Shown: positions 8,620-26,196, numbered from the stretch's first letter. The stretch: 37,015 bases of DNA from a bacterium (GCA_044869795.1 JBIOXT010000298.1:1-37015); one strand, 5' to 3'. Notes: a model not told the origin generated them from the sequence alone. A program made the numbers and translations.

Positions 8620-8623
8620 AGCG

Positions 8624-9766: not shown

Positions 9767-10829
9767 TCTGAATGCGGTGCCAGGCGTTGTTGAGATATCC
9801 TTTGAAGTTCCACACCTGACGCGGGTCGTCCGGTTGCGAATTCCCCGCGGCATCCCGGGCGCGGGCGATCAGTTCATGGGTGCCGGGGGACAGATCCAGA
9901 TCGATGTCCCACAGACACCACCCCCACCTCGACGCCTGGCGGAGCGCAGCCTGCCGCCAGGTGCGCCCTCCGTCCGAGGAAACCTCGACCGCGGCGATCC
10001 TCCCTGCCCCGCTGAGGGCGTAGCCGCGCACAGCGCAGGGACCCGCGGGGATCTCGGCGTGGGCGGGGGGCGCGGCGATGACCGCATTTACGGGAATCTC
10101 CCCGATCATCTCCCCCGAGGCCCAATTCGCGGTCGCCGCGATCACGTCGGGGGGGAACATCTTGTACGCCTTCGCTTGAAAGAAGTTCTCAGACGGGGTG
10201 TCCGACACGACAATGTCCTTCAGCCACTTCACGCTGCGGGCGCCGATGTACCCTGGCACCATGACGCGCACGGGGGCACCATGCTCGGGTCGCAGAAGTT
10301 CGCCGTTCATCTCCCACGCGAGCAGGACCTCCGACGCCGTCGCTTTGTCCAGCGGGATCGATCCCCCGAACCCAAAGCGGCGGCCATCCTTGGTCACCTC
10401 ATCGGCGCCGGCAAACGCCACATGGCGCGCTTCCGGCATCGCCCCGGCGGCGGCGAGCACCGCCGTCAGCGGCACGCCCGCCCACCGCGCATTGCCAACG
10501 GCCTCGGTCTCCCAGGGAAGTTCACCCGGGACGGGCCGCAGCGCCATGAGCTCACTGCGGCGGTTTCCCGCGCATTCCACGGCGGCTTCCACCGTCGAGG
10601 CGGGAAATCGAGCCCGCAGCTCCCCGACCGTCAGCGCGAGCGCGTTCCGCACCATGCCCGTCACCGACACGCGGTGGGTGGCAGGGTCCAGCCGCGGCAT
10701 GGACCCGTGGTTGCGGACGAAGAAGTGATCGACAGGCGTCAGGGCGTGGGTCACCAGCCGATCGGCGGGAGCCCCGCCGTTGATTGGTTCGGACTCCTTG
10801 ACGACGAACGCCGCATGCTTTCCCTGCAA
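9753..10829 (-). CDS. Sulfite oxidase-family molybdopterin oxidoreductase (Oxidored_molyb + Mo-co dimerisation domains)
   Basis: Motifs: FFVRNHGSMP, the Mo-ligand cysteine in AVECAGNRR, VRVMVPGYIGARSVKWL, and a C-terminal Ig-like dimerisation domain. The ORF is open to 10922 (TTG). I prefer TTG 10827-10829, which has GAGGAG 5 nt upstream. The start remains uncertain. No Tat or Sec signal is visible. Confidence 0.8.
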   Translation of the reverse strand: MQGKHAAFVVKESEPINGGAPADRLVTHALTPVDHFFVRNHGSMPRLDPATHRVSVTGMVRNALALTVGELRARFPASTVEAAVECAGNRRSELMALRPVPGELPWETEAVGNARWAGVPLTAVLAAAGAMPEARHVAFAGADEVTKDGRRFGFGGSIPLDKATASEVLLAWEMNGELLRPEHGAPVRVMVPGYIGARSVKWLKDIVVSDTPSENFFQAKAYKMFPPDVIAATANWASGEMIGEIPVNAVIAAPPAHAEIPAGPCAVRGYALSGAGRIAAVEVSSDGGRTWRQAALRQASRWGWCLWDIDLDLSPGTHELIARARDAAGNSQPDDPRQVWNFKGYLNNAWHRIQITRT

Positions 10830-10921
10830 GGTCACTCCTCGTAGTTCAACAGGACCGTCGCTCCCGCCCTGCCCTAAACCAGCCGAGGCATTCCAGAGCG
10901 AGGAGCGAATCCCCAAGGGCA

Positions 10922-11620
10922 ATGGACTCGTTGATCCACATCACGAGGGAGCCCGCCCGCCCATCTGCGGGGAAACCTCCGCTGCTGCTGCTGCTGCATG
11001 GATTCGGCAGCCATGAAGGCGACCTGATGGGCCTGGCCCCGTACGTGGACGGCCGGTTCTTTCTCGTCAGCGCCCGCGGCCCGATCACACTGGCGCCCGG
11101 TGCGTTTGCATGGTTCCACATCATCGACCTGACCGTCAATCCGCCGGTGATTGCCGCAGAGGAGGCCGAGCGCAGCCGCCGGATGCTCGCGGGGTTCATC
11201 GACGAGGTGACGGACCGCCTCGGGCTGGATGCGCAGCGGGTGTACCTGATGGGGTTCAGCCAGGGCGCGATCATGGCGCTGAGCCTCGCCCTCACGGAGC
11301 CGGACACACTGGCGGGCGCGGTGGCGATGAGCGGGCGGATCATTCCGGACGTCCTTGCCCAGGCGGCCCCGCCCGAGCGGATGGCCGGGCTGCCGGTGAT
11401 GGTCGTGCACGGGGCATTCGATCCGCTGCTTCCTGTGGAAGACTACGGACGCCCGACGCGCGATATCCTCGCCGCCCTGCCGGTGGCACTGACCTACAAA
11501 GAATACCCGATGGGCCACCAGGTATCCGACGAGAGCCTGGATGACGCGATGCGCTGGCTGACGGAACGCCTTGAGAGTCCCCGCCGCGACGAGCCGGCGG
11601 GCTCGCAGGTGAGGCGGTGA
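10922..11620 (+). CDS. Phospholipase/carboxylesterase-family alpha/beta hydrolase
   Basis: 232-aa ORF. Motifs: PLLLLLHGFGSHEGDL, the nucleophile elbow GFSQGA, and VVHGAFDPLLP...GH. Confidence 0.8.
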   Translation: MDSLIHITREPARPSAGKPPLLLLLHGFGSHEGDLMGLAPYVDGRFFLVSARGPITLAPGAFAWFHIIDLTVNPPVIAAEEAERSRRMLAGFIDEVTDRLGLDAQRVYLMGFSQGAIMALSLALTEPDTLAGAVAMSGRIIPDVLAQAAPPERMAGLPVMVVHGAFDPLLPVEDYGRPTRDILAALPVALTYKEYPMGHQVSDESLDDAMRWLTERLESPRRDEPAGSQVRR

Positions 11621-12423
11621 TCACCGGCATCGATCACATCGTGATCCTGGTCGATGATCTCGGCGCCGCAATGCGGCAGTATGCATCCGTGGGGTTCGTC
11701 GTCACGCGGGGCGGGACGCATCCGGGAGCGGGGACGGAAAACGCCTTGATCCCGCTCGCCGACGGCGCATACCTGGAACTCCTGGCCGTGACCGACCCGG
11801 TCGTGGGGCTGGGGCATCCGCTGTGGTCACGCCCGGATGGAAGCCGGCGGAAGGCGGGGGACTACGGAGGGTTTGCCCTCAGCACCGACGACGTCGAGGG
11901 CGACGTCCGGCGGATCGTCGCTGCGGGGCTGACGATGACGCCGCCGCGGGACGGCTCGCGGGAACGCACCGACAAGACGGTCGTGCGGTGGCGGGTCTCG
12001 TTCCCGGACCAGGGCGAGCTGCCGTTCCTGATTCAAGATCTCACGCCGCGGAACGCGCGCATCGCGCGGCCGGAGCGGGGGCTGGGACTGCGCGCGGCCA
12101 TCAGCGAGGTCCGCGTCGCCACCGCCGACCTTCCCGCGGCAGTGCGCGCGTACAATCAGCTTCTCGACACGCCGGCGCTCGGCGCCGCCCCTGCCGCGGG
12201 GGAAGTTCACTTCCTGACGTCACGCGGCGAGATCATCCTGGCCGACCATGCCGGAAGCACCCGCGCCGGCGGGCTCTTCGAGATCGTGCTCGCGGTGGCT
12301 GAATGGAGCATTGCGACGCGGGAACTGCTGCCCCGCCTCGAGCATCGCGCCGGCGGCTGGCTCATTCCGCCGCCGATGACGGCGGGCGCACGCGTCCTGC
12401 TGCGCCCGAAGGCAGGCCCCTAG
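11617..12423 (+). CDS. VOC-family (glyoxalase-like domain) protein
   Basis: 268-aa ORF. The GTG start overlaps the preceding stop (GTGA). N-terminus: ITGIDHIVILVDDLGAAMRQYASVGFVVTRGGTHPGAGTENALIPLADGAYLELLAV. Confidence 0.75.
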   Translation: MITGIDHIVILVDDLGAAMRQYASVGFVVTRGGTHPGAGTENALIPLADGAYLELLAVTDPVVGLGHPLWSRPDGSRRKAGDYGGFALSTDDVEGDVRRIVAAGLTMTPPRDGSRERTDKTVVRWRVSFPDQGELPFLIQDLTPRNARIARPERGLGLRAAISEVRVATADLPAAVRAYNQLLDTPALGAAPAAGEVHFLTSRGEIILADHAGSTRAGGLFEIVLAVAEWSIATRELLPRLEHRAGGWLIPPPMTAGARVLLRPKAGP

Positions 12424-12440
12424 ACGCCGGAAGGCGGCCT

Positions 12441-12701
12441 TTAGACCGCGCGGGATCGGGTCAGGAGCCCGAGGATCCAGAGAAAGACGATTGCGCCGAC
12501 CGTGGCGACCACGATCGAGTAGAGGTTCACTCCGGTCGCCCCGGCGCCGCCAAACAACCCGAAGACCCAACCCCCGACGACGGCGCCGACCACGCCGACC
12601 AGCAGCGTGACCAGAAACCCGCCGCCCTGGCGGCCGGGCATGAGCAATTTCGCGAGATAACCGGCGATCAGTCCGATGACGATCCAGGCGATCCAGCTCA
12701 T
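12441..12701 (-). CDS. GlsB/YeaQ/YmgE-family stress-response membrane protein
   Basis: 86 aa: MSWIAWIVIGLIAGYLAKLLMPGRQGGGFLVTLLVGVVGAVVGGWVF, the classic transglycosylase-associated family sequence. GGAGGTG (12706-12712, reverse strand) lies upstream of the ATG. Confidence 0.85.
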   Translation of the reverse strand: MSWIAWIVIGLIAGYLAKLLMPGRQGGGFLVTLLVGVVGAVVGGWVFGLFGGAGATGVNLYSIVVATVGAIVFLWILGLLTRSRAV

Positions 12702-12720
12702 CGTTCACCTCCACTGAGTC

Positions 12721-12796
12721 TGGCGGGCCCGGAGGGATTCGAACCCCCAACGCCGGGGTTAGAAACCCCGTGCTCTGTCCGTTGAGCTACGGGCCC
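12721..12796 (-). tRNA. tRNA-Arg (anticodon UCU), CCA encoded
   Basis: Reverse complement: GGGCCCG-TA-GCTC-AACGGACA-GAGC-A-CGGGG-TTTCTAA-CCCCG-GCGTT-GGGGG-TTCGAAT-CCCTC-CGGGCCC-G-CCA. It folds by hand into a 76-nt cloverleaf. The anticodon loop TT-TCT-AA gives anticodon TCT. Confidence 0.9.
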
Positions 12797-12829
12797 GGAA
12801 TGTCCAACGGTAGTATAGCGCAGGGAGCC

Positions 12830-13807
12830 TTACGTGAGGCGGTTCACCCAGAACAGCGACAACCCGACGGCACCGAGCGCGAGCAGCGCGGCGGCCCCCG
12901 CGGCAACGCCGGTCACTTCGGTGGGCTTGTACTCCCACCCGATCATCCGGCTCAACTGACGGTACACGTCGCGGAGCTGGCCGACCGAACGCGCCAGGAA
13001 GTAGTTGCCGCCGGTGACCTCGGCCATTTCCCGCAGCGTGTCTTCATCCAGGCGCACCCAGATGCTGCGGCCGCCGAGGTTGAGGAACGTCCCCTCCGGC
13101 GTCCCCACGCCGATCGTGTACACTTTGACCTCCTGCTGCCGGGCCGTGCGCGCGGCGTCCACCGGCAGCACACCGCGGTTGCTCTGCCCGTCGGACAACA
13201 ACACGACCGTCCCCGGGGGCACGGGGGGCTTCGGCACCGGCGCCGGCATCCCCGAACCCAGCGGCCGCTCACGACCGGGCAGCGCCCAGACGGCTTCCAG
13301 CAGCCCGTCCCCGATGGCCGTGGCGAACTCGGTGTTCAGCAGATCGATGGCCTCGAGCACCCGGTTGTGGTCGACGGTCGGCGGAACCAGCAGCGTCGCG
13401 TAGCTGCTGAACGTCACCAGGCCGACCTTGAGGCCGCGCGGCAGGCCCTGCACGAATTCTCGCGCCGCGGCCTTCGCCGCTTCGATGCGCATCGGCGGCA
13501 GGTCGTCGGCGAGCATGCTGCGGCTGACATCAATCGACAGGACGACGGTGTTCTGGGTTGCGGGGATCGGGAACGGCGCGATGGGCCGTGCCATGGCAGT
13601 GATGACGGCGACCAGCGAAAGACCAAACATGACGGCCGGAACGTGCCGGCGCCAGCGTCTTCCCTGCTGCGCGGCAGTCTTCAAGACAGCGACGCCGGTG
13701 TACCGGACGGCCTCGCGGGGCGGCTGCCGCAGAGCCCGCACGTACAGCCAAGCGACGACGGGGATCAGGAGCAGCCCCGCCAGCAAGGACGGCCATTGAA
13801 AGGTCAC
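12830..13807 (-). CDS. VWA domain-containing membrane protein (BatB-like)
   Basis: The ORF is open to 13912, but GTG 13805-13807 overlaps the upstream TGA (GTGA). That start gives VTFQWPSLLAGLLLIPVVAWLY, which parallels the BatA-like N-terminus. MIDAS motif DVSRSM. C-terminal TM: AAGAAALLALGAVGLSLFWV. Confidence 0.8.
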   Translation of the reverse strand: MTFQWPSLLAGLLLIPVVAWLYVRALRQPPREAVRYTGVAVLKTAAQQGRRWRRHVPAVMFGLSLVAVITAMARPIAPFPIPATQNTVVLSIDVSRSMLADDLPPMRIEAAKAAAREFVQGLPRGLKVGLVTFSSYATLLVPPTVDHNRVLEAIDLLNTEFATAIGDGLLEAVWALPGRERPLGSGMPAPVPKPPVPPGTVVLLSDGQSNRGVLPVDAARTARQQEVKVYTIGVGTPEGTFLNLGGRSIWVRLDEDTLREMAEVTGGNYFLARSVGQLRDVYRQLSRMIGWEYKPTEVTGVAAGAAALLALGAVGLSLFWVNRLT

Positions 13808-15729: not shown

Positions 15730-16764
15730 CTACCCCGGAGGCGTGATCGCTCCGGCCTTGGTCTGCTCGTAGGGGTCGCCGATGTGGACCCGCGGGGCCG
15801 GGACCCGCTCGAGCACCCGCGCCAGGATCTGGTCCGGCCCGACGTCCTGCGCGAGCGCTTCGTAGGAGAGCACGAAGCGGTGCCGCATCACCTCCGGCGC
15901 GAGGTCTCGCACGTCCTCCGGGAGGACGTACTCGCGGCTGCGCAGCAGGGCCAGCGCCTTCGCGCCGAGGATGAGGTTGAGCGATGCGCGGGGGCTGCTG
16001 CCGAATGAGATGAACGCCCCGAGGTCGGCGAGGCCGAAGTCCTTCGGCCGCCGCGTGGCGTTGGCCAGCGTCACCGCGTACTCCATGATCTTGGGATGGA
16101 CGTACACGGCGTCGGCGATGCGCTGGATCTGCAGCAGCTCGTCCGCGGTCATCACGGGCTGCACCGTCGGATACTCCACGGTCATGCGCTCGACGATGGT
16201 GATCTCCTCGTGCACGCTGGGGTACGAGATGACGACTTTGAACAGGAACCGATCGACCTGCGCCTCGGGCAGCGGGTACGTGCCTTCACTCTCGATCGGG
16301 TTCTGCGTCGCCAGCACCAGGAACGGGTTCGGCACCGTAAAGGTCTGCTTGCCGATGGTGACCTGACGCTCTTGCATCGCCTCAAGCAGCGCGGACTGGA
16401 CTTTGGCCGGAGCCCGGTTGATTTCGTCGGCGAGGACCAGGTTGGCGAACACCGGACCGAGCTCGGTCTCGAACGTCCCGGTGTGCTGGTTATAGATCCG
16501 CGTGCCGACAAGATCGGCGGGCACCAGATCCGGCGTGAACTGGATGCGTTTGAATTCGGCGTCGATGGACTGCGCCGTGGTCTTGATGGCCAGCGTCTTG
16601 GCCAGCCCCGGGACGCCCTCGATCAACACGTGTCCGCGCGCCAGCAGGGCGACGAGGATCCGCTCCAGCATCAAGTCCTGACCCACGATCACCTTCTTGA
16701 TCTCGACCAGCACTGTGCGCATCGTGGCCGAGGCCTGCTGGAACGTCTCCACCGGATAGACCAT
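15730..16764 (-). CDS. MoxR-family AAA+ ATPase
   Basis: 344 aa. Motifs: HVLIEGVPGLAKT (Walker A), LADEINRAPAKVQSALLEAM (Walker B / sensor), TFTVPNPFLVLATQNPIE. GGAGG lies 7 nt upstream of the ATG. Confidence 0.92.
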   Translation of the reverse strand: MVYPVETFQQASATMRTVLVEIKKVIVGQDLMLERILVALLARGHVLIEGVPGLAKTLAIKTTAQSIDAEFKRIQFTPDLVPADLVGTRIYNQHTGTFETELGPVFANLVLADEINRAPAKVQSALLEAMQERQVTIGKQTFTVPNPFLVLATQNPIESEGTYPLPEAQVDRFLFKVVISYPSVHEEITIVERMTVEYPTVQPVMTADELLQIQRIADAVYVHPKIMEYAVTLANATRRPKDFGLADLGAFISFGSSPRASLNLILGAKALALLRSREYVLPEDVRDLAPEVMRHRFVLSYEALAQDVGPDQILARVLERVPAPRVHIGDPYEQTKAGAITPPG

Positions 16765-19521: not shown

Positions 19522-19599
19522 CGGGGCGTAGCGCAGTTTGGCTAGCGCGCGTGGTTTGGGACCACGAGGTCGCCGGTTCAAATCCGGCCGCCCCGACCA
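19522..19599 (+). tRNA. tRNA-Pro (anticodon UGG), CCA encoded
   Basis: CGGGGCG-TA-GCGC-AGTTTGGCTA-GCGC-G-CGTGG-TTTGGGA-CCACG-AGGTC-GCCGG-TTCAAAT-CCGGC-CGCCCCG-A-CCA. The cloverleaf folds by hand. Anticodon TGG. Confidence 0.9.
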
Positions 19600-19613: not shown

Positions 19614-20201
19614 CTACCCTTCGGCGGGGGGAGTTTCAGACGTTCCCGCGGCGGCTTTCGGCGCCGCCTTGCTTGCCGCCTCGCGGGCCAGTTCGGTCGT
19701 GCGCTTGGGCCGCATGTCCTGCATCCCGAGGAAGTCCGCCGCAAGGTAGCGCTCGATCAGCTCGCGGATCTGCGCTTCGCGCCCGGCACTGCCCGCCCGC
19801 GCTTCGGCCACCCACGTCTTGTCCACGCGGTAGGTCTTCAGCTGCTTGCCGTCGTGGAAGTGGACAAACGGGTGGTTCTTCGAGTCTTCCAGGACGAGGA
19901 TCTTCACGCTGAGGTTGAGTTTCTTTGCCACGCCGGCCGCCACGTCCAGGATCCACTGCCGCGTCGCGTCCGGCAGCTGACCCGGGCCCGCGCCGATCGT
20001 CGCCGCCACCGTCTGGCCCCGCAGCGGGTTGGGGTCGGCCGGCACGCCCTCACCTTTGATCTGCGCGCGGCGTTTCTTGACGTTGTCCCTGATCTGGTTC
20101 CAGACATCCAGTCCCGCCACCATCGACGCGAAGAGATAGAAGAAGAAGACCGCCAGCGTCAGCGACCAGTACTTCAGGAACGCGCTCAGTGCGTCCGGCA
20201 T
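19614..20201 (-). CDS. Hypothetical membrane-anchored protein
   Basis: 195-aa ORF. One N-terminal TM segment (YWSLTLAVFFFYLFASMVAGLDVW), then a soluble domain and an Ala/Lys/Pro-rich tail. No family recognised. Divergent from ku. Confidence 0.5.
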   Translation of the reverse strand: MPDALSAFLKYWSLTLAVFFFYLFASMVAGLDVWNQIRDNVKKRRAQIKGEGVPADPNPLRGQTVAATIGAGPGQLPDATRQWILDVAAGVAKKLNLSVKILVLEDSKNHPFVHFHDGKQLKTYRVDKTWVAEARAGSAGREAQIRELIERYLAADFLGMQDMRPKRTTELAREAASKAAPKAAAGTSETPPAEG

Positions 20202-20222: not shown

Positions 20223-20292
20223 GGCGCGCCGCGGGTCCCTTCCTTCACTTGTGCTGTATAATACTGGGTACGCTGTTTGCCCGGGGCGCGCC
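20223..20292. promoter_or_regulatory. ku / divergent-gene control region: perfect TATAAT (20257-20262) flanked by two GGCGCGCC palindromes (20223-20230, 20285-20292)
   Basis: Read directly. This is the only AT-rich block (TGTATAATACTG) in the 110-nt divergent intergenic region. No good -35 is present. The reverse strand reads TATTAT. The ku RBS, GGGAGGAAAGG, follows. Confidence 0.3.
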
Positions 20293-20311
20293 GGGAGGAA
20301 AGGATGACGCG

Positions 20312-21136
20312 ATGCGTCCGATCTGGAAGGGACACTTGACCTTTGGCCTCGTCACCATCCCCGTCAAACTCTACACCGCCACCGACTCGAAGGACATCCG
20401 GTTCCGCCTGCTGCACAAGAGCTGCATGACGCCGATCCAAAACAAGCGCTACTGCCCTCACCATGAGGCCATGGTCGACTGGAACGACGTCGTGCGCGCC
20501 TACGAGTACGCGAAGGACAAGTTTGTGCCCGTCACCGAGGAAGAGCTCGACAACGTGCCGCTGGAGACCGCCGGCACGGTGAGCGTCACCGCCTTCGTCA
20601 ACCTGGAAGAGATCGACCCCATCTACTACGAGCGCTCGTACTACCTGGCGCCGGATGAGGGCGGGCAGAAGGCGTTCCGGCTGCTGCACGACGTCCTCGG
20701 TGAGGCGGCGCGGGTCGCCGTCGGCAAGGTGGTCATCAAGGAGAAGGAACACCTCGTCTCCGTCCGGCCGCACGACGGCACGCTGGTGATGGCGATCCTC
20801 TACTACGCGGATGAAGTGCGATCCATCGAGGACATTCCCGAGCTGCCGGTCCAGACAAAGATCCATCCCAACGAGAAGAAGATGGCGCTGCAGCTCGTGG
20901 AAGGCCTCAGCACCACCTTCGACGTGGCGGAGTTCCACGATGACTACCGCGAGGCGCTGCAGAAGGTCATCACCGCGAAGATCGAGGGCGAAGAAGTCGT
21001 CGGCCTCCCTGCCAGGAAGGAAACCAAAGTCGTCGACCTGATGGATGCCCTGCGGCGCAGCCTGCAGACGACCGCGAAGGAGAAACCCGCCCGCCGGCCA
21101 CGCTCGGCCGCTCCACGCGCCGCCGCGCGTCGCTGA
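20312..21136 (+). CDS. ku: Ku protein (NHEJ DNA-end-binding)
   Basis: The ORF is open from 20249, but the family start is ATG 20312 (MRPIWKGHLTFGLVTIPVKLYTAT) with GGGAGGAAAGG upstream. Basic C-terminal tail: KPARRPRSAAPRAAARR. Confidence 0.92.
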   Translation: MRPIWKGHLTFGLVTIPVKLYTATDSKDIRFRLLHKSCMTPIQNKRYCPHHEAMVDWNDVVRAYEYAKDKFVPVTEEELDNVPLETAGTVSVTAFVNLEEIDPIYYERSYYLAPDEGGQKAFRLLHDVLGEAARVAVGKVVIKEKEHLVSVRPHDGTLVMAILYYADEVRSIEDIPELPVQTKIHPNEKKMALQLVEGLSTTFDVAEFHDDYREALQKVITAKIEGEEVVGLPARKETKVVDLMDALRRSLQTTAKEKPARRPRSAAPRAAARR

Positions 21137-21844
21137 GTGGCGCAGTTCCGCGGGGGGACGTCGGGCTTCAGCTATCCCGAGTGGAAGGGCACCTTCTACC
21201 CCGCCGGTGTGGCGGCCGACGGGATGTTAAAGCACTACGCGTCGGTCTTCCCGACGGTCGAAATCAACAATACGTTCTACCGGTATCCCAAGGACGAGAA
21301 CCTGCGGCAGTGGGCCGCCGCCGTGCCCGCCGGCTTCCGCTTCAGCATCAAAGCGCACCGCCGGATCACCCATCACAAGCGGCTGAAAGACACCGACAGC
21401 GACGTGGCCTTCCTCTACGAGCGGATGCTGGCGCTCGGCCCGCAGATGGGTCCCCTGCTCTTCCAGCTGCCGCCGACGCTGCGCGCCGATCTCGCGGTGC
21501 TGGAGACCTTCCTGGGACAACTCCGCCCGGGCCCGCCGGTGACCATGGAGTTCCGCCACGCCTCGTGGGCGACCGATGCGACGTACGCGCTGCTCGACCG
21601 GTACCGCGTCTCGCTGTGCCTCGCCGAAACGGACGAGCAGGCGGCGCCGGCCGTGGTCGTCGGACCCATCGCCTACGTCCGGCTGCACAAGTCCGGCTAC
21701 GATGACGCCGCCCTCTGGCGGTGGGCAGAATGGATACGGGAGCGCCTCCGCGAGGGCCGCGATACCTTCGCCTACTTCACCCACGAGGAGGGCGCTCCGG
21801 CCACCGACTACGCGCGCACCCTGACCACGCTGGTCAACGGCTGA
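21137..21844 (+). CDS. DUF72 (UPF0759, YecE-like) domain-containing protein
   Basis: 235 aa. The GTG at 21137 directly abuts the ku TGA (21134-21136). N-terminal signature: GTSGFSYPEWKGTFYP ... LKHYASVFPTVEINNTFYRYP ... FEFRHASW-like MEFRHASW. Confidence 0.88.
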   Translation: MAQFRGGTSGFSYPEWKGTFYPAGVAADGMLKHYASVFPTVEINNTFYRYPKDENLRQWAAAVPAGFRFSIKAHRRITHHKRLKDTDSDVAFLYERMLALGPQMGPLLFQLPPTLRADLAVLETFLGQLRPGPPVTMEFRHASWATDATYALLDRYRVSLCLAETDEQAAPAVVVGPIAYVRLHKSGYDDAALWRWAEWIRERLREGRDTFAYFTHEEGAPATDYARTLTTLVNG

Positions 21845-21860
21845 GAGGACCAAGACGACG

Positions 21861-24746
21861 GTGGGACTCCAGGAGTACCGCAAGAAGCGACGCTTCGCCG
21901 AGACGCCCGAGCCCCAGGGCGGCACAAAGACCGCCGGCAAAGGCAACCTTCACTTCGTCATCCAGGAACACCATGCGACCCGCCTGCACTGGGACTTCCG
22001 CCTGGAAATGGACGGCGTGCTGAAGTCGTGGGCCGTGCCCAAGGGTCCCACGCTCGATCCGGATGAGAAGCGCCTGGCCGTGCCGGTCGAGGACCACCCC
22101 ATGGACTACATGGAGTTTGAGGGCGTGATCCCCAAAGGCAATTACGGGGCCGGGACCGTGATGGTCTGGGACATCGGGACGTACGACGTGCTGGAGGGCG
22201 ACCCGGTCAAGGCCTATGACAGCGGCAAGCTCACGGTCGTGCTGCACGGACAGAAGCTGGACGGCGAGTTCCACCTCGTACGGACGAAGATGGGCGGGCA
22301 GATCCAGTGGCTGATGTTCAAGAAGCGCGACGACGACGCGGAGCCGGGATGGAAGCTCCCGGAACCGTCGGTTTCGGTGAAGAGCGGACGCACGATCGAG
22401 CAGATCCGGGAGGAAGGAACCGCGCGGTGGCACTCCGGAAGCCCGGAAGCGAGGAAACGGGGAAGCGAGGAAGCGGGAACGCCCTCGAGAGTTCGCCAGG
22501 CCCCGGGCCCGAGGCCCCAGGCCCGGATCCTTAGGCAGCTGGGTCTAGACAAACCGGGCAAGGATTCATTCCCGAAAGACCTCAAGCCTACCCTGGCGAC
22601 CCTGGTGGAGCAGCCCTTCGACGACAAGGCGTGGGTGTTTGAGGTCAAGTGGGACGGCGTGCGGACGATCGCGTACCTGCGGCGGCGCGGGAGCGAGCGG
22701 GAAGTGGCGCTGCGGAGCCGCAACAACCTCACGCAGAACCGGCAGTTTCCTGAAGTGGTCGAAGCCCTGTACCGGCTCGAGGTGCCCGATGCGGTCGTCG
22801 ACGGCGAGATCGTCGCGCTCGACAGCGAAGGACGCGCCCACTTCCAGCTCCTGCAGTCCCGCATCCCGATGGCTCGCGATGGACAGCGGCCGAAGGTACC
22901 CGAGCCGCTGACGATCGCGTACTACGTCTTCGATCTGCTGTACTACAACGGGCACTCCCTGCTGGAGCGCCCTCTGGAAGAGCGGCGGCGCGCCCTCGAG
23001 ACCATCCTGCCGCCCGGCCCGGTAGTCCGGCTGTCCGACGCGGTGCCCGAGTCGGGGCGGGCTTTCTATGCGGTGGCGCACGCCCACGGCCTCGAAGGCA
23101 TCGTCGGCAAGCGCAAGGATGCTCCCTACGCGCCGGGGAAGCGCACGCCAGCGTGGGTCAAGATCAAGATCAAGCAGCATCTCGAGGCCGTGGTCGGAGG
23201 GTTCACGGCGGGGCGCGGCGCGCGCGGGAAAGCCTTCGGCGCCCTCTTGCTTGGCGCATACGACGACGCCGGCCGGCTGCAGTACATGGCGCACTGCGGG
23301 GGTGGATTCACCGATGCCGAACTCCGCCGCCTCAAAGGCCTCCTCGACGACCGCGTCATCAGGACCAGCCCCTTCGCCACCGATCCCCCGACCACGAACG
23401 ATGTCCCGACCTGGGTCAAACCCGAGATCGTGGTGGAAGTCGAATACGGCGGCTGGACACGGGAGGGATTCCTGCGGTTTCCTGTCTACAAGGGCCTGCG
23501 CACCGACAAGTCCGCGCGCGACGTCAAGCTGGAGCGGCCGGACAAACTACCCTGGGAACCGGGAACCGGGAACGGGGAACCGCGGAAGCGCGGAACCGCG
23601 GAAGCGAGCAACGGAGAAAGCAGGCAAAGGGGCAGGCGGGCGAGCGGGCAAGCGGGCCAGCCACAGATCGAGGCCAAGAAGTCAGGGGCCCGAAGCCCGA
23701 AGCCCGAAGCCCGTGAGTTCATCGAGTCCGAACTCGCGCGTGCGAAAGTCCCCGTCCAGTTCACAAACCTCGACAAAGTCTTCTGGCCCGAGCAAGGCTA
23801 CACGAAGGGGGATTTGATCTACTACTACCTGAAGGTCGCCGACGCGATCCTGCCCCATCTGGAAGACCGGCCGATCACCCTGCGCCGGTTCCCGAACGGG
23901 ATCGCCGGGCAGAGCTTCTATCAGAAGGACTACCCCGACGCGCCCAAGTTCGTGACGATCGTCAACATTTGGACGGAGAGCTCAAAGACCACCCTCGCCG
24001 CTCCGGTCTGCAACAACCTGCCGACGCTGCTGTGGCTGGCGCAGCTGGCGGACATCGAGATCCACACCTGGTTCAGCCGCATCACGCCGCTGCGGGGGGC
24101 TGAGGGCCCCCGTGCCGGGGTCGAGTTTGCGCGCTCGGAGACGAGCCGGCGCGAGAGCGTGCTGAACCGCCCGGACTACATCGCCTTTGACATCGATCCG
24201 TACATCTTCCCGGACAACAAACTGCCCCAGCGCAAAGGCGAGAAGGATCCGGACTACTCACGGCGCGGATTCGACGCCGCCACCGAAGCCGCATTCTCGC
24301 TGCGAAAGATCTTGAAGAGCCTGGCGCTGGAGAGTTTTGTGAAGACGTCGGGGAAGACCGGCCTGCACGTATTCGTGCCGATCGAGCGGCGATACACCTA
24401 CGAGCAGACACATGCGGTGGCCAAGACGATCACGCAGCACCTTGAAGCGCAGCACCCCAAGACCATCACGACGGAATGGGACACGGCCAAACGCGTCGGC
24501 AAGGTCTTCCTGGACTACAATCAGAACCGGCTCGGCGCGACCCTGGCCAGCGCGTACAGTGTGCGCCCCACGCCGGAGGCCGGCGTGTCGTGGCCGTTGA
24601 CGTGGAGCGAGCTCGAGGCGGGGCTTGATCCCCTGGAGTTTACCTTGCAGTCGATCCCCGAACGCATCAAGGGGCGCCGCGATCCGTGGAGGACCCTGCT
24701 GGCCAAACCTCAGCGCCTCGAGAAGCACTTGGGCATCAAAGCCTGA
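21861..24746 (+). CDS. ligD: DNA ligase D, three-domain form (3'-phosphoesterase - ATP-dependent ligase - polymerase/primase)
   Basis: 961 aa. PE domain: FAETPEP, HFVIQEHHATRLHWDFRLE. Ligase domain: adenylation motif EVKWDGVR and LEGIVGKRKDAPY. Pol domain: FTNLDKVFWPEQGYTKGDLIYYY, DYIAFDIDP, GKTGLHVFVPI. The two interdomain linkers are low-complexity. Confidence 0.93.
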   Translation: MGLQEYRKKRRFAETPEPQGGTKTAGKGNLHFVIQEHHATRLHWDFRLEMDGVLKSWAVPKGPTLDPDEKRLAVPVEDHPMDYMEFEGVIPKGNYGAGTVMVWDIGTYDVLEGDPVKAYDSGKLTVVLHGQKLDGEFHLVRTKMGGQIQWLMFKKRDDDAEPGWKLPEPSVSVKSGRTIEQIREEGTARWHSGSPEARKRGSEEAGTPSRVRQAPGPRPQARILRQLGLDKPGKDSFPKDLKPTLATLVEQPFDDKAWVFEVKWDGVRTIAYLRRRGSEREVALRSRNNLTQNRQFPEVVEALYRLEVPDAVVDGEIVALDSEGRAHFQLLQSRIPMARDGQRPKVPEPLTIAYYVFDLLYYNGHSLLERPLEERRRALETILPPGPVVRLSDAVPESGRAFYAVAHAHGLEGIVGKRKDAPYAPGKRTPAWVKIKIKQHLEAVVGGFTAGRGARGKAFGALLLGAYDDAGRLQYMAHCGGGFTDAELRRLKGLLDDRVIRTSPFATDPPTTNDVPTWVKPEIVVEVEYGGWTREGFLRFPVYKGLRTDKSARDVKLERPDKLPWEPGTGNGEPRKRGTAEASNGESRQRGRRASGQAGQPQIEAKKSGARSPKPEAREFIESELARAKVPVQFTNLDKVFWPEQGYTKGDLIYYYLKVADAILPHLEDRPITLRRFPNGIAGQSFYQKDYPDAPKFVTIVNIWTESSKTTLAAPVCNNLPTLLWLAQLADIEIHTWFSRITPLRGAEGPRAGVEFARSETSRRESVLNRPDYIAFDIDPYIFPDNKLPQRKGEKDPDYSRRGFDAATEAAFSLRKILKSLALESFVKTSGKTGLHVFVPIERRYTYEQTHAVAKTITQHLEAQHPKTITTEWDTAKRVGKVFLDYNQNRLGATLASAYSVRPTPEAGVSWPLTWSELEAGLDPLEFTLQSIPERIKGRRDPWRTLLAKPQRLEKHLGIKA
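22437..22484 (+). repeat. Six tandem 8-nt units (GGAAGCCC GGAAGCGA GGAAACGG GGAAGCGA GGAAGCGG GAACGCCC) inside the LigD PE-ligase linker
   Basis: Read directly. 48 nt, in frame, encoding GSPEARKRGSEEAGTP. Confidence 0.8.
23554..23715 (+). repeat. Composite of four short-period tandem-repeat blocks inside the LigD ligase-polymerase linker
   Basis: Read directly. Blocks: GGGAAC[C/G] x4 (23554-23581); GCGGAA[G/C]C x3 (23582-23605); degenerate purine-rich units; GGGCNNGC x4 (23630-23661); GCCCGAA x3 plus GCCCGTG (23688-23715). Confidence 0.8.
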
Positions 24747-24755
24747 GTGGACGGG

Positions 24756-25487
24756 TCAGGCGTCGCCGGTGGGCCGGGGTCCCCCGACGGCCAGCCTGCG
24801 CAGGAAGGGCTTGGCCGCGGCCAGCGCGCGGGCGCGGTGACTGATCCGGTTCTTCGCGGCCAGGGACAGTTGCGCCATCGTCTTTCCCTCATGCGGGATG
24901 AAGAAAATCGGATCGTAGCCGAACCCGCCGGATCCGCGGGGCGTGGTCAGCACCTGGCCTTCGCACACCCCCTCGAACGTCCGCACGTCCCCCTCGGGCA
25001 GGGCCACCGCGAGGACGGCGCGATAGCGGGCCGTGCGCTCGCCGGGCTGCTTCCCGCGGAGCAGTTTCAGGAGCTTGGCGTTGCGCGCGCTGTCGTTGGC
25101 GCCGTCCTGCAGGAACCGGTTGGAGAACGGTCCGGGCCCGCCGCCGAGCGCGTCGACTTCGATGCCTGAGTCATCTGCGATCGCGATCCGACCCGTCATC
25201 CGCGACACGGTCAGCGCCTTGCTGATCGCGTTCTCGGTGTAGGTGCTGCCTTCTTCCGGCAGCGGCGGGATCTGCGGAAAGGCCGCCAGGGAATACACCT
25301 GCACCGGCAGACCCTGCATCAACTCGATGAACTCGCGGACCTTGCCGTCGTTGCGCGTGGCGAGAACGACCTCCAGCGGTTCGCCGGGGATAAGCTTCGG
25401 CCCCCGGGCCCGGGGCTCCGGCCCCGGCCCCGAGCGGGCTCGTCGCGGCGGCGGCGCCCTACGCTTTCGGGACCGGTTGGAGGACAT
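24756..25487 (-). CDS. rdgB: XTP/dITP diphosphatase (RdgB/HAM1 family)
   Basis: Conserved core from [16 protein letters not shown] to FGYDPIFF...[11 protein letters not shown]. The only canonical in-frame start downstream of the long-ORF start is ATG 25485-25487. It adds a 37-aa Arg/Pro-rich N-terminal extension and overlaps rph by 29 nt. The start is uncertain. Confidence 0.78.
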
Positions 25488-26196
25488 CGGCGAGTACGCT
25501 CTTCTGGTAGGCAACCAGCTGCTGGATTCCCCGTTCACCGAGGACGAGCAGCATCTGCATCTCGTCTTTGCTGAACGGCAACCCTTCCGCCGTCGCCTGG
25601 AACTCGACAATCCGTCCGCTGCCGGTCATCACCAGGTTCATGTCGACGCGGGCGTGGGAGTCCTCCTGGAAGTTCAAATCCAGGCGCGGCTCATTCTCCA
25701 CGATCCCGACACTCGTCGCGGCGAGGGAATCCCGGATCGGCCACCTGGTCAAGGCCCCGGTCTTGCGCAGGACCGCCAGCGCGTCCAGCAGAGCGACGTA
25801 GGCGCCGGTGATCGCCGCGGTCCGGGTGCCGCCGTCGGCCTGGATGACGTCGCAGTCGAGCCAAATGGTCCGCTCGCCGAGTTTCTCGAGATCCACCGCC
25901 GCCCGCAGAGAGCGGCCGACCAGCCGCTGGATCTCCTGCGTCCGCCCGCTGGGCCGGCCGATCTCACGCGGGGTCCGGTCCGTGGTCGCGCGGGGCAGCA
26001 TGCCGTACTCCGCGGTGATCCACCCCTGCCCCGCTCCGCGCAGCCACTGCGGCACGCGCTCCTCGACGCTCGCCGCGCAGATCACGCGCGTATCCCCGAG
26101 CTCGATCAACGCGGATCCCTCGGCGTGCTTCAGGTAATGCCGCGTGATCGCCACCTGGCGCAGTTGGTCGTTCGCGCGCCCGTCGGGTCGGCTCAT
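25459..26196 (-). CDS. rph: Ribonuclease PH
   Basis: 245 aa. Sequence: [44 protein letters not shown] ... [16 protein letters not shown] ... [23 protein letters not shown]. Confidence 0.93.

What the first reader, a model, noticed from the sequence alone, without database searches (positions are those of the whole stretch)
20312..24746. DUF72 gene wedged, translationally coupled, between ku and ligD: candidate third NHEJ component
ku ends with TGA at 21134-21136 and the DUF72 ORF starts with GTG at 21137, leaving zero intergenic nucleotides. DUF72 ends at 21844 and ligD starts at 21861, a 16-nt gap. All three genes share a strand, and the only obvious promoter-like region lies upstream of ku.

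Bacterial NHEJ is classically described as a two-component Ku + LigD machine. DUF72 (PF01904; YecE/TM1631 family) has no established function. It is a metal-binding TIM-barrel family. To my recollection it has been compared structurally with endonuclease IV-type DNA-repair enzymes; that should be verified, not assumed.

The operon position suggests an end-cleaning role (AP site, 3'-blocked end or similar). Such a role would complement the phosphoesterase domain already present in this LigD.
Basis: partly seen in the sequence, partly recalled or inferred. Interest (0 to 1): 0.7.

Follow-up and report, generated by a model that had tools for sequence, protein, structure and literature searches.

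The report
Conserved third gene in bacterial end-joining operons
A gene of unknown function (DUF72) sits between the two known bacterial DNA-break-joining genes here, and the same partnership recurs in at least nine bacterial phyla, which makes it a strong, testable candidate for a missing DNA-processing enzyme of that repair pathway.

Summary

The adjacency is not a local accident. Of the 80 species-level genomes whose DUF72 is closest to this one, 51 have Ku and/or LigD within 10 kb, and 40 within 300 nt. These cover 9 phylum-level groups and at least 9 gene orders.

The reverse test agrees. In 118 Ku contigs picked with a Ku motif alone, DUF72 is on 28% of contigs of 6 kb or more, against 57% for LigD.

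A second line of evidence is independent of neighbourhood. In Planctomycetota, at least 33 protein clusters fuse DUF72 to the 8-kDa and helix-hairpin-helix DNA-binding module of family X polymerases.

I could not reproduce the endonuclease IV resemblance. Foldseek and hhalign show only generic TIM-barrel similarity, and metal binding is unproven.

Best reading: DUF72 is a DNA-acting accessory enzyme of a large subset of bacterial NHEJ loci, probably processing ends, gaps or lesions before LigD acts. The chemistry is inferred, not shown. No paper in the searchable library links DUF72 to Ku or LigD.

The parts
20255..20262 (+). Promoter-like extended -10 element (TGTATAAT) in the 110-nt region between a divergent ORF and ku
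   Evidence: Read from the sequence. The consensus scan did not list it because no -35 hexamer matches. No promoter-like site was found inside the three-gene block.
20312..21136 (+). ku (274 aa), the DNA-end-binding protein of NHEJ
   Evidence: PF02735 1.2e-48. TIGR02772 Ku_bact 298.7 bits against a cutoff of 150. GGAGGA at 20294-20299.
21134..21139 (+). Stop/start junction TGA|GTG with 0 nt between ku and DUF72
   Evidence: Equivalent junctions of -4 or -1 nt occur in many Gemmatimonadota loci.
21137..21844 (+). DUF72 (PF01904) TIM-barrel protein, 235 aa; candidate NHEJ accessory enzyme
   Evidence: Pfam 9.2e-61. AlphaFold2 model pLDDT 91.4. TM-score 0.86 to TM1631 (PDB 1vpq). Conserved linkage to Ku/LigD.
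21845..21860 (+). 16-nt spacer holding a GAGGA ribosome-binding site for ligD
21861..24746 (+). ligD (961 aa) in the order phosphoesterase - ligase - primase/polymerase
   Evidence: PF13298 at aa 35-141, PF01068 at aa 253-436, PF04679 at aa 455-550, PF21686 at aa 648-943. TIGR02776, TIGR02777 and TIGR02779 are above their cutoffs.

Best explanation
ku, DUF72 and ligD form one co-directional, tightly packed three-gene unit, most likely an operon. The DUF72 protein belongs to a subfamily that is a recurrent accessory gene of bacterial NHEJ loci. It is a compact (beta/alpha)8 barrel. Its invariant polar residues (E42, N44, K72, H79, Q110, E138, R140, H141, D/E164, R182) sit at the C-terminal ends of the strands, where TIM-barrel enzymes carry their active sites.

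I propose that it is a hydrolytic DNA-processing enzyme (phosphodiesterase or nuclease). It would work at Ku-bound breaks or short gaps to remove a blocked or damaged terminus, or a lesion close to the end, that the LigD phosphoesterase, polymerase and ligase cannot handle. This would leave a 3'-OH/5'-P substrate for LigD.

Shown: the gene arrangement; the cross-phylum linkage in both directions; the fold; the conserved residues; the fusion of DUF72 to a DNA-gap/5'-phosphate-binding module. Inferred: co-transcription, catalysis, the substrate, and any contact with Ku or LigD.
For: 1. Linkage from the DUF72 side. 51 of the 80 closest species-level loci have Ku and/or LigD within 10 kb. The figure is 18 of 26 where both 10-kb flanks are present, and 40 of 80 within 300 nt. 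Binomial tails run from 1e-25 to 1e-78 against a generous chance rate.

2. Breadth. Linked loci occur in 9 phylum-level groups: Armatimonadota-like, Gemmatimonadota, Gamma/Betaproteobacteria, Myxococcota, Acidobacteriota, Verrucomicrobiota, Chloroflexota, Methylomirabilota and Eremiobacterota. At least 9 different gene orders occur, so linkage has survived repeated rearrangement.

3. Internal control. Among all ORF families within 10 kb of DUF72, Ku (47 loci) and LigD (36) are by far the most recurrent. Only two further families reach 16-21 loci; all others reach 11 or fewer, and 7 or fewer outside single-phylum synteny.

4. Reverse test. In 118 Ku contigs found with a Ku-motif DNA pattern, DUF72 is on 16% overall, on 28% of contigs of 6 kb or more, and on 32% of those with at least 2.5 kb on both sides of Ku. 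LigD scores 41%, 57% and 63% in the same strata. DUF72 is the commonest specific neighbour after LigD and a MerR-TPR gene.

5. Translational coupling. Ku-stop/DUF72-start overlaps of 4 or 1 nt recur in Gemmatimonadota. DUF72-to-ligD gaps of 3-5 nt occur in relatives of the window.

6. Domain fusion. At least 33 distinct 90%-identity clusters, the named ones from Planctomycetota and one on a 9.2-Mb contig, have HHH_8 + HHH_5 + DUF72. Their N-terminal 150 residues match residues 3-147 of the solved bacterial PolX structures 2w9m and 3au2 at about 1e-20 and NCBIfam PolX at 7e-35. In one Phycisphaerae genome DUF72 is divergently adjacent to a complete PolX.

7. Independent DNA-damage contexts. DUF72 is reported as enriched near polB2 and SRAP genes (PMC11791011). 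I saw DUF72, SRAP and a family-B polymerase together on a Deinococcus plasmid.

8. Residues. The TM1631 residues that Konc et al. predicted to contact DNA or phosphate (S10, Y47/Y48, H79, Q114, R145) align with S12, F47/Y48, H79, Q110 and R140 here. Most are conserved at 94% or more across 472 sequences.
Against: - There is no experimental datum for any DUF72 protein. The only published function is an in-silico prediction.
- The solved DUF72 structures contain no metal, and I could not superpose an active site.
- No specific similarity to endonuclease IV or UvdE was found.
- The family is much wider than NHEJ: 13,665 clusters at 50% identity.
- It occurs where no Ku or LigD is nearby: E. coli yecE sits in a yecD-yecE-yecN context, and several plasmid, Nonomuraea and Nitrobacter loci have no NHEJ gene within 8-10 kb.
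- About 70% of sampled Ku loci lack DUF72, so it is not a core component.
- Eight of 26 full-flank loci of the same subfamily are unlinked.
- The NHEJ cassette is known to move horizontally, so the phylum count overstates the number of independent events.
- The linked LigDs all already carry a phosphoesterase domain, so the need for a further end-healing activity is assumed, not demonstrated.
Confidence: 0.55

Rival explanations
1. DUF72 is a general DNA-lesion enzyme, for example a UvdE-like 'alternative excision' endonuclease or an AP/oxidised-site processing enzyme. It is merely co-regulated with NHEJ as part of a stationary-phase, desiccation or general stress repair regulon, and does not act at Ku-bound ends.
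For: - The family occurs without a nearby Ku (E. coli yecE; T. maritima TM1631).
- It is also associated with polB2/SRAP and with PolX.
- On rhizobial and Legionella plasmids it lies among Hsp20, general-stress, ferritin-like and topoisomerase IB genes, not NHEJ genes.
- The PolX-module fusion genes stand alone.
- Konc et al. predicted a lesion with two unpaired nucleotides as the substrate.
Against: - Simple co-regulation does not require stop/start overlap with ku, or 3-5-nt spacing to ligD, repeated across phyla.
- No other repair gene shows comparable linkage to DUF72 in the 87 loci.
- The NHEJ-linked proteins form one subfamily (42-84% identical), distinct from the unlinked plasmid and YecE types (30-45% identical).
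Confidence: 0.25
2. DUF72 deals with the ribonucleotides that the LigD polymerase domain adds at breaks. It would trim or excise ribonucleotide tracts at or after the junction, rather than clean damaged DNA ends.
For: From established knowledge of LigD: the polymerase domain prefers rNTPs and the phosphoesterase domain trims 3'-ribonucleotides. DUF72 is always found with PE-containing LigDs in the linked loci. The PolX-module fusion points to gap or nick substrates.
Against: No sequence or fold similarity to RNase H-type or other ribonucleotide-excision enzymes was found. This is pure inference with no direct support.
Confidence: 0.08
3. DUF72 is a non-catalytic partner, such as a scaffold, end-bridging factor or regulator of Ku or LigD.
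For: No metal is present in the crystal structures and no activity has ever been shown. The tight translational coupling to ku would suit a stoichiometric partner.
Against: The invariant E, K, H, Q and R residues all sit at the C-terminal ends of the barrel strands. That is the signature of a TIM-barrel active site rather than a protein-protein interface. The same residues are conserved in family members from genomes without adjacent NHEJ genes.
Confidence: 0.06
4. The linkage is hitch-hiking. DUF72 is a metabolic TIM-barrel enzyme unrelated to DNA that happens to travel with a horizontally mobile NHEJ cassette.
For: NHEJ genes are patchily distributed and horizontally transferred (Sharda et al. 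2020, PMC7719229; listed, not read in detail). Some linked loci lie on a megaplasmid, for example Gemmatirosa.
Against: - At least nine different gene orders retain the linkage.
- The reverse sampling gives 28-32%.
- The fusion to a PolX DNA-binding module is independent of any NHEJ cassette.
- There is a separate association with polB2/SRAP.
Confidence: 0.04

Closest known systems
DUF72 / UPF0759 family (PF01904): TM1631 (PDB 1vpq), EF0366 (1vpy, 1ztv), E. coli YecE
   Same: Member by sequence and fold: Pfam 206 bits, TM-score 0.86 to 1vpq. It shares the family-wide invariant residues E42, N44, K72, H79, Q110, E138 and R140.
   Different: - It is shorter (235 aa against 272-289 aa).
- It belongs to a subfamily with a distinctive beta-8 motif, YFTHEEGAP, in place of the F-(D/N)-N-(D/N) motif of other members.
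- This subfamily, unlike YecE or the plasmid types, is linked to ku and ligD.
Canonical two-component bacterial NHEJ (Ku + LigD of Mycobacterium, Pseudomonas, Bacillus)
   Same: Ku and a PE-Lig-Pol LigD are present and adjacent, as in the described systems. The literature describes the pathway as two-component (PMC6547435).
   Different: A third conserved gene is inserted into the unit. To my knowledge it is not present in the studied model loci, but I could not check this here. It is present in about a quarter to a third of environmentally sampled Ku loci.
Endonuclease IV (Nfo) and UV-damage endonuclease (UvdE), xylose-isomerase-like TIM-barrel nucleases
   Same: Same general fold class, (beta/alpha)8. 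Konc et al. [quoted passage not shown] The proposed kind of job (incision or cleaning of damaged DNA) is the same.
   Different: There is no detectable profile similarity (hhalign probability 0.15). Neither enzyme is among the top 50 Foldseek hits; only one xylose-isomerase-like epimerase appears, at rank 50 with E = 0.013. The trinuclear metal site could not be mapped, and the DUF72 crystals hold no metal.
Bacterial family X polymerase (PolX) with its C-terminal PHP domain
   Same: In Planctomycetota, DUF72 is fused to the same 8-kDa and HhH 'fingers' module that anchors PolX on gapped DNA. In those proteins DUF72 takes the place of the palm-thumb-PHP part. From my own knowledge, the PHP domain supplies 3'-end cleaning and AP-endonuclease activity.
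   Different: The window protein has no HhH module. DUF72 is not homologous to the PHP domain or to the polymerase palm.
Eukaryotic NHEJ end-processing accessory factors (Artemis, PNKP, APLF, TDP1/2)
   Same: Functional analogy only: dedicated enzymes that clean 'dirty' ends for the Ku/ligase core (listed in PMC6547435).
   Different: There is no sequence or fold relationship. Recruitment by Ku is not shown for DUF72.

Membership tests
DUF72 / PF01904 (UPF0759, YecE/TM1631) | Match to the Pfam model above the gathering score over the whole domain | tested here: met
   206.1 bits against a cutoff of 25.3; residues 21-231 match model positions 1-216 of 217.
DUF72 / PF01904 (UPF0759, YecE/TM1631) | TM1631-like (beta/alpha)8 barrel fold | tested here: met
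   AlphaFold2 model with pLDDT 91.4 and pTM 0.89, showing eight strand/helix units. Foldseek gives 1vpq E = 5e-12 with TM 0.86, and 1vpy/1ztv E about 1e-13.
DUF72 / PF01904 (UPF0759, YecE/TM1631) | Family-wide conserved residues (E in beta-2 'vEiN', K in beta-3, TH after beta-3, Q in 'QlPP', 'EfRH' in beta-5) | tested here: met
   E42, N44, K72, H79, Q110, E138 and R140 are conserved at 98% or more in 472 sequences, including YecE. They align with TM1631.
Endonuclease IV / UvdE (xylose-isomerase-like TIM-barrel DNA-repair nucleases) | Detectable sequence or profile homology (AP_endonuc_2 PF01261 or UvdE PF03851) | tested here: not met
   hhalign of A1 against E. coli Nfo gives probability 0.15. 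None of 44 members hits either Pfam family at E <= 10. A profile search of PDB sequences finds only DUF72 entries. No UvdE sequence was available for a direct hhalign.
Endonuclease IV / UvdE (xylose-isomerase-like TIM-barrel DNA-repair nucleases) | Fold similarity beyond that of any TIM barrel | tested here: not met
   No endonuclease IV or UvdE chain is in the top 50 Foldseek hits. After the DUF72 entries come CutC, IGPS, designed barrels, DHDPS and GH5, with TM 0.4-0.5.
Endonuclease IV / UvdE (xylose-isomerase-like TIM-barrel DNA-repair nucleases) | Conserved His/Asp/Glu ligands of a two- or three-metal site | tested here: inconclusive
   Invariant E42, E138, D/E164, H79 and H141 exist, but no coordinates were available for superposition. 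The published structures hold no metal.
Endonuclease IV / UvdE (xylose-isomerase-like TIM-barrel DNA-repair nucleases) | AP-endonuclease, 3'-diesterase or UV-lesion incision activity | not testable with these tools
   Needs biochemistry.
Bacterial NHEJ system (Ku + LigD) | A Ku homologue and a multidomain ATP-dependent ligase D encoded together | tested here: met
   The same trio is present in relatives at 62-84% identity with the same flanking genes.
Bacterial NHEJ system (Ku + LigD) | DUF72 is linked to Ku/LigD non-randomly and beyond one lineage | tested here: met
   51 of 80 and 18 of 26 loci; 9 phylum-level groups; reverse test 13 of 46 and 6 of 19.
Bacterial NHEJ system (Ku + LigD) | Single ku-DUF72-ligD transcript | not testable with these tools
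   Only indirect support: 0-nt and 16-nt gaps, and no internal promoter-like or terminator-like sites.
Bacterial NHEJ system (Ku + LigD) | DUF72 contributes to break rejoining, or binds Ku or LigD | not testable with these tools
   Needs genetics and biochemistry. No multimer prediction tool was available.
HhH(PolX)-DUF72 fusion proteins | N-terminal HHH_8 + HHH_5 module | tested here: not met
   The window protein is a bare DUF72 domain. The fusions are used as evidence for a DNA substrate, not as the family of this protein.

The most novel reading that the evidence does not exclude
DUF72 is the dedicated end- or gap-processing nuclease/phosphodiesterase that bacterial NHEJ has been assumed to lack. 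It would make the pathway a three-component machine (Ku, DUF72, LigD) in roughly a quarter to a third of environmental NHEJ loci. It would sit within a wider conserved island that also recruits an Abhydrolase_11 hydrolase and a MerR-TPR regulator. The same catalytic barrel would be reused with PolX-type DNA-binding modules and alongside PolB2/SRAP in other repair settings. This would assign a first function to a structural-genomics orphan family of more than 13,000 sequence clusters.
Probability: 0.4. Interest if true: 0.85.

Novelty: new variant of a known kind. Interest (0 to 1): 0.75.

Why it matters
Bacterial NHEJ is taught and modelled as a minimal Ku + LigD pair. The enzymes that trim or clean non-ligatable ends in vivo are largely unassigned.

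A conserved third gene would change that picture. It is tightly coupled to ku or ligD in nine phylum-level groups and is about half as frequent next to ku as ligD itself.

It would also give a concrete, cheap-to-test hypothesis for DUF72, a family with crystal structures since 2004 and no known function.

The hypothesis is testable now:
- A cultured carrier exists: Gemmatirosa kalamazoonensis KBS708, plasmid 2, with the arrangement ligD<- ->ku-DUF72.
- The proteins are small.
- Defined oligonucleotide substrates and ku/ligD reconstitution assays are standard.

If the activity is real, it may also improve NHEJ-based genome editing tools that use bacterial Ku/LigD.

Tried and rejected
1. Endonuclease IV homology. 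hhalign of the DUF72 profile against E. coli Nfo gave probability 0.15. A Pfam scan of 44 members at E <= 10 gave only weak chance hits (ComA and others). A profile search of PDB sequences returned only DUF72 entries. Foldseek against the PDB showed no Nfo or UvdE in the top 50. I had no UvdE sequence, so the UvdE claim of PMC11791011 could not be tested by hhalign.

2. Anti-phage defence reading. PADLOC gave no hit for Ku, DUF72, LigD, the Abhydrolase_11 protein or the fusion protein. The only hit was a weak HTH match for the MerR-TPR protein.

3. Cultured model organisms on plasmids or chromids. Bradyrhizobium, Rhizobium, Legionella, Streptomyces, Deinococcus, Nonomuraea and Nitrobacter DUF72 genes (31-40% identical) have no Ku or LigD within 8-10 kb. 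Only Gemmatirosa kalamazoonensis does.

4. Apparent DUF72-Ku read-through ORFs in L017 and L019. These were artefacts of tblastn alignments running one codon past the stop; the ORF table shows separate genes.

5. Literature.
- 'DUF72' as a whole word occurs in 12 papers, none on NHEJ.
- DUF72 + ligase returns one unrelated paper.
- YecE appears only as a Stx-phage integration site.
- A search with 'yunF' was swamped by personal names.
- A search combining LigD with TIM barrel or genomic context found nothing relevant.

6. Unlinked loci of the same subfamily. Inspection of their neighbours showed no common alternative partner, apart from one PolX and one histidine phosphatase.

7. Single-linkage ORF clustering around Ku. 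It merged Ku, LigD and shadow ORFs into one component, so I used it only to rank the remaining neighbours.

Full report
**Observation.** A GTG at 21137 opens a 235-aa ORF that ends at 21844. A GTG at 21861 opens a 961-aa ORF that ends at 24746. All are on the + strand.

Pfam and NCBIfam identify them as follows:
- Ku: PF02735 1.2e-48; TIGR02772 well above its cutoff.
- DUF72: PF01904 9.2e-61.
- A complete LigD in the order phosphoesterase - ligase - primase/polymerase.

The DUF72 start is supported by the N-termini of 43 homologues. ku and ligD have GGAGGA/GAGGA sites at suitable distances, whereas DUF72 has none and abuts the ku stop codon. That arrangement fits termination-reinitiation coupling.

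A consensus scan found no promoter-like or terminator-like site inside the block. A TGTATAAT element lies 50 nt upstream of ku.

The contig comes from an uncultured bacterium whose closest relatives are labelled Armatimonadota or simply 'bacterium'.

**Is the adjacency more than local synteny?** I scanned one genome per species (GTDB set) with a 44-sequence DUF72 alignment. I kept the 80 loci closest to the window protein, which are 42-84% identical and span 16 phylum-level groups.

A tblastn search with the window Ku and the three LigD domains gave these counts:
- Ku and/or LigD within the available 10 kb or less: 51 of 80 loci.
- The same, for loci with both 10-kb flanks complete: 18 of 26.
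- Ku or LigD within 300 nt of DUF72: 40 of 80.

Several of the 29 negatives are truncated on one side. Their DUF72 proteins are often 70-78% identical to linked ones, so they look like orthologues placed elsewhere in the genome.

Linked loci occur in nine groups: Armatimonadota-like, Gemmatimonadota, Gamma/Betaproteobacteria, Myxococcota/delta, Acidobacteriota, Verrucomicrobiota, Chloroflexota, Methylomirabilota and Eremiobacterota.

The gene order differs between groups:
- ku>DUF72>ligD
- ligD< >ku>DUF72
- DUF72>ligD>ku
- ku<ligD< >DUF72
- DUF72>ku>merR-TPR
- ku>merR-TPR>DUF72
- ku< >ligD>DUF72
- DUF72> <ligD ... ku>
- DUF72> <ku >ligD

Retention of linkage through this much rearrangement argues for selection, not recent shared ancestry. 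Against a deliberately generous chance rate of 2%, the binomial tails are 1e-25 or smaller. These figures ignore relatedness and possible cassette transfer, so they are illustrative only.

As an internal control, I clustered all ORFs in the 87 loci. Ku (47 loci) and LigD (36) are by far the commonest neighbours of DUF72. Only an Abhydrolase_11 hydrolase (21 loci) and a MerR-TPR protein (16) come near. Everything else is lineage synteny or generic families in 11 or fewer loci.

**Reverse test.** I searched metagenome contigs with a degenerate DNA pattern for the Ku N-terminal motif. This sampled Ku loci without reference to DUF72: of 120 contigs, 118 carry Ku. The table gives the share of Ku contigs that also carry each gene.

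| Stratum | DUF72 | LigD |
|---|---|---|
| All 118 Ku contigs | 19 (16%) | 41% |
| Contigs of 6 kb or more (n = 46) | 13 (28%) | 57% |
| At least 2.5 kb on both sides of Ku (n = 19) | 6 (32%) | 63% |

So DUF72 is about half as often next to ku as ligD is. Among the other neighbours it is the commonest specific family after the MerR-TPR gene. It is also absent from about 70% of Ku loci, so it is an accessory gene and not part of the core.

**Coupling.** The zero-nucleotide junction is peculiar to this contig. Close relatives have 6-106 nt between ku and DUF72. In Gemmatimonadota, however, the Ku stop and the DUF72 start overlap by 4 nt (ATGA/GTGA) or 1 nt in locus after locus. In relatives of the window, DUF72 and ligD are 3-5 nt apart. 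A 62%-identical relative has the same trio and the same flanking genes: zwf and gnd on one side, rdgB and rph on the other.

**The protein.** AlphaFold2 with the alignment gives a confident eight-stranded barrel, with pLDDT 91.4. Foldseek against the PDB finds the three DUF72 structures (1vpq TM 0.86; 1vpy; 1ztv) and then only generic TIM barrels at E > 1e-4. Neither endonuclease IV nor UvdE appears in the top 50.

Three further tests agree:
- hhalign against E. coli Nfo gives probability 0.15.
- No member touches AP_endonuc_2 or UvdE in Pfam at E <= 10.
- A profile search of PDB sequences returns only DUF72 entries.

Konc et al. 2013 (PMC3828134) built a TM1631-DNA model on the endonuclease IV complex. 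They also state that sequence identity is about 7% and that no metal is present in 1vpq, 1vpy or 1ztv. A 2025 paper calls the fold close to UvdE and reports DUF72 as enriched near polB2 (PMC11791011). So 'metal-binding' and 'endonuclease IV-like' are not established.

What is solid is the residue pattern:
- In 472 sequences, E42, N44, K72, H79, Q110, E138, R140 and R182 are 96-100% conserved, and H141 and D/E164 nearly so.
- In the model all of these lie at the C-terminal ends of strands 2-7, the canonical TIM-barrel active-site face.
- They include the counterparts of the residues Konc et al. predicted to touch DNA or phosphate.

**Independent evidence that the substrate is DNA.** An exhaustive HMMER search found 13,665 DUF72 clusters at 50% identity. 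Among the best 150, four are long proteins. Their N-termini are HHH_8 + HHH_5, the 8-kDa and 'fingers' helix-hairpin-helix subdomains of family X polymerases.

A search with one of them found at least 33 distinct clusters with this architecture, 43-63% identical to one another. The named ones are from Planctomycetota, and one sits on a 9.2-Mb contig. The N-terminal 150 residues match residues 3-147 of the solved PolX structures of Deinococcus and Thermus at about 1e-20 and NCBIfam PolX at 7e-35. In these proteins DUF72 occupies the place of the palm-thumb-PHP part of PolX.

The fusion genes stand alone. Their DUF72 moiety is 41-44% identical to the window protein. Two further contexts point the same way:
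- In a Phycisphaerae genome, DUF72 is divergently adjacent to a complete PolX.
- On a Deinococcus plasmid, it lies beside an SRAP gene and a family-B polymerase, matching the published polB2 association.

From established knowledge of Pol beta/lambda and bacterial PolX, the 8-kDa domain binds the 5'-phosphate on the downstream side of a gap or break. A catalytic barrel tethered to it would therefore be held at a gap or nick, or at the 3' terminus facing it.

**Mechanism proposed.** Putting this together, DUF72 is most likely a hydrolytic DNA enzyme co-expressed with Ku and LigD. It would act at Ku-held breaks or short gaps on a terminus or near-terminal lesion that LigD cannot process.

One concrete candidate is the 3'-PUA block. 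This block arises when an AP site near a 3' end is cut by a lyase, and the literature says it 'requires additional processing' (PMC6547435). All linked LigDs already have a phosphoesterase domain, so DUF72 adds to that domain rather than replacing it.

The steps stand as follows:
- Shown: arrangement, linkage, fold, conserved residues, fusion.
- Inferred: co-transcription, catalysis, substrate, partnership with Ku or LigD.

I put 0.55 on this statement. I put about 0.8 on 'acts on DNA' and more than 0.95 on 'the linkage is real and selected'.

**Rivals.** The main rival (0.25) is that DUF72 is a general lesion-processing enzyme that is only co-regulated with NHEJ. This fits three observations: the family occurs without nearby Ku (E. 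coli yecD-yecE-yecN); it sits in stress-gene islands on rhizobial and Legionella plasmids; and it has polB2 and PolX contexts.

Three further readings get lower weight, for the reasons given in their entries:
- A ribonucleotide-trimming role.
- A non-catalytic partner role.
- Pure hitch-hiking.

A defence-system reading found no support.

**Novelty.** The family and the pathway are both known. The conserved three-gene (and larger) NHEJ unit and the PolX-module fusion are not described in any paper I could search:
- 12 papers contain 'DUF72' as a whole word, none on NHEJ.
- DUF72 + ligase returns one unrelated paper.
- Other searches found nothing relevant.

Subscription-only literature and database neighbourhood resources such as STRING could not be checked. 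I class this as a new variant of a known kind. A cultured carrier, Gemmatirosa kalamazoonensis KBS708 (plasmid 2, ligD<- ->ku-DUF72), makes it directly testable.

Noticed in passing
L024:9199-9909(-), L032:2745-3437(+), L053:9202-9951(+), L031:9020-9706(+); also L103, L159, L175, L177, L178, L210: A ~230-aa alpha/beta hydrolase of family Abhydrolase_11 (PF20408, E ~1e-47) lies directly next to DUF72 or LigD. It occurs in 21 of 87 DUF72 loci (Gemmatimonadota, Beta/Gammaproteobacteria, Verrucomicrobiota, Myxococcota) and in 6 of 118 independently sampled Ku contigs. It may be a further NHEJ-associated enzyme. It matches no NCBIfam model.
   Followed up: partly
L047:11629-12498(+), L019:7302-8159(+), L068:5430-6254(-), L053:8312-9193(+); 20 of 118 Ku-sampled contigs (e.g. 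L132, L154, L192): A ~280-aa protein with an N-terminal MerR-type HTH and C-terminal TPR repeats sits immediately downstream of ku on the same strand. It occurs in Proteobacteria, Myxococcota, Methylomirabilota and some Gemmatimonadota, often with DUF72 on its other side. It is probably a dedicated regulator or adaptor of these NHEJ loci.
   Followed up: partly
L020:3983-6943(-) and 10 other Gemmatimonadota loci; fragments in L024:6817-9202(-): A ~980-aa UvrD/PcrA-type helicase with an inserted DnaQ-like (RNase_T) 3'-5' exonuclease domain lies convergent to, or between, the ku-DUF72 and ligD genes. It was seen only in Gemmatimonadota, so it may be lineage synteny. A helicase-exonuclease next to NHEJ genes is still worth a look.
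   Followed up: partly
P0135, P0170, P0146, P0183, P0271-P0297 (proteins); loci L092:5825-7129, L093:4617-5732: Planctomycetota encode stand-alone proteins of about 430 aa. In these, the PolX 8-kDa and HhH fingers module is fused through a basic linker to DUF72, with a Lys/Arg-rich C-terminal tail. At least 33 clusters show this architecture, which I did not find described in the searchable literature.
   Followed up: yes
L012:7674-9401(-) next to DUF72 at L012:9881-10720(+): In a Phycisphaerae MAG, DUF72 is divergently adjacent to a complete bacterial PolX (HHH_8, HHH_5, palm, thumb, PHP).
   Followed up: yes
L086 (Deinococcus taeanensis plasmid p_TS293_4): DUF72 7977-8735(+), SRAP 10249-10581(-), family-B polymerase 10886-13201(-), Ada-domain gene 16335-16702(-, cut at locus end): DUF72 lies beside an SOS-response-associated peptidase and a PolB-like polymerase. 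This is a concrete example of the polB2/SRAP/DUF72 association reported in PMC11791011.
   Followed up: partly
window 19614-20201(-): A 195-aa ORF with an N-terminal hydrophobic helix and no Pfam or NCBIfam match is divergent from ku across a 110-nt region. A 197-aa gene with no Pfam hit occupies the same position in a 62%-identity relative (L089:8237-8830). It may share the ku promoter region.
   Followed up: no
window 19522-19599(+); window 24756-25610(-) and 25459-26196(-): tRNA-Pro(TGG) lies just upstream of the divergent ORF. Downstream of ligD, convergent, are rdgB (Ham1 family, 8.8e-61) and an ORF at the position where the relative's locus (L089) carries rph (RNase PH). This flanking synteny is conserved in the Armatimonadota-like relatives only.
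   Followed up: partly
L081 (Bradyrhizobium japonicum pS11L-1), L083 (Rhizobium leguminosarum pR132503), L082 (Legionella sainthelensi plasmid): The more distant plasmid-borne DUF72 genes (33-36% identical) are not near Ku or LigD. They lie among Hsp20, 'general stress protein', ferritin-like, hemerythrin and (in Bradyrhizobium) topoisomerase IB genes, which suggests membership of a general-stress or dormancy island.
   Followed up: no
L031:401-10696 (Verrucomicrobiota MAG): Between ku and ligD lie a ResIII/DEAD helicase (840 aa), a 197-aa ORF and an N6/N4 DNA methylase. This looks like a restriction-modification-like insertion into an NHEJ locus that also carries Abhydrolase_11 and DUF72.
   Followed up: no
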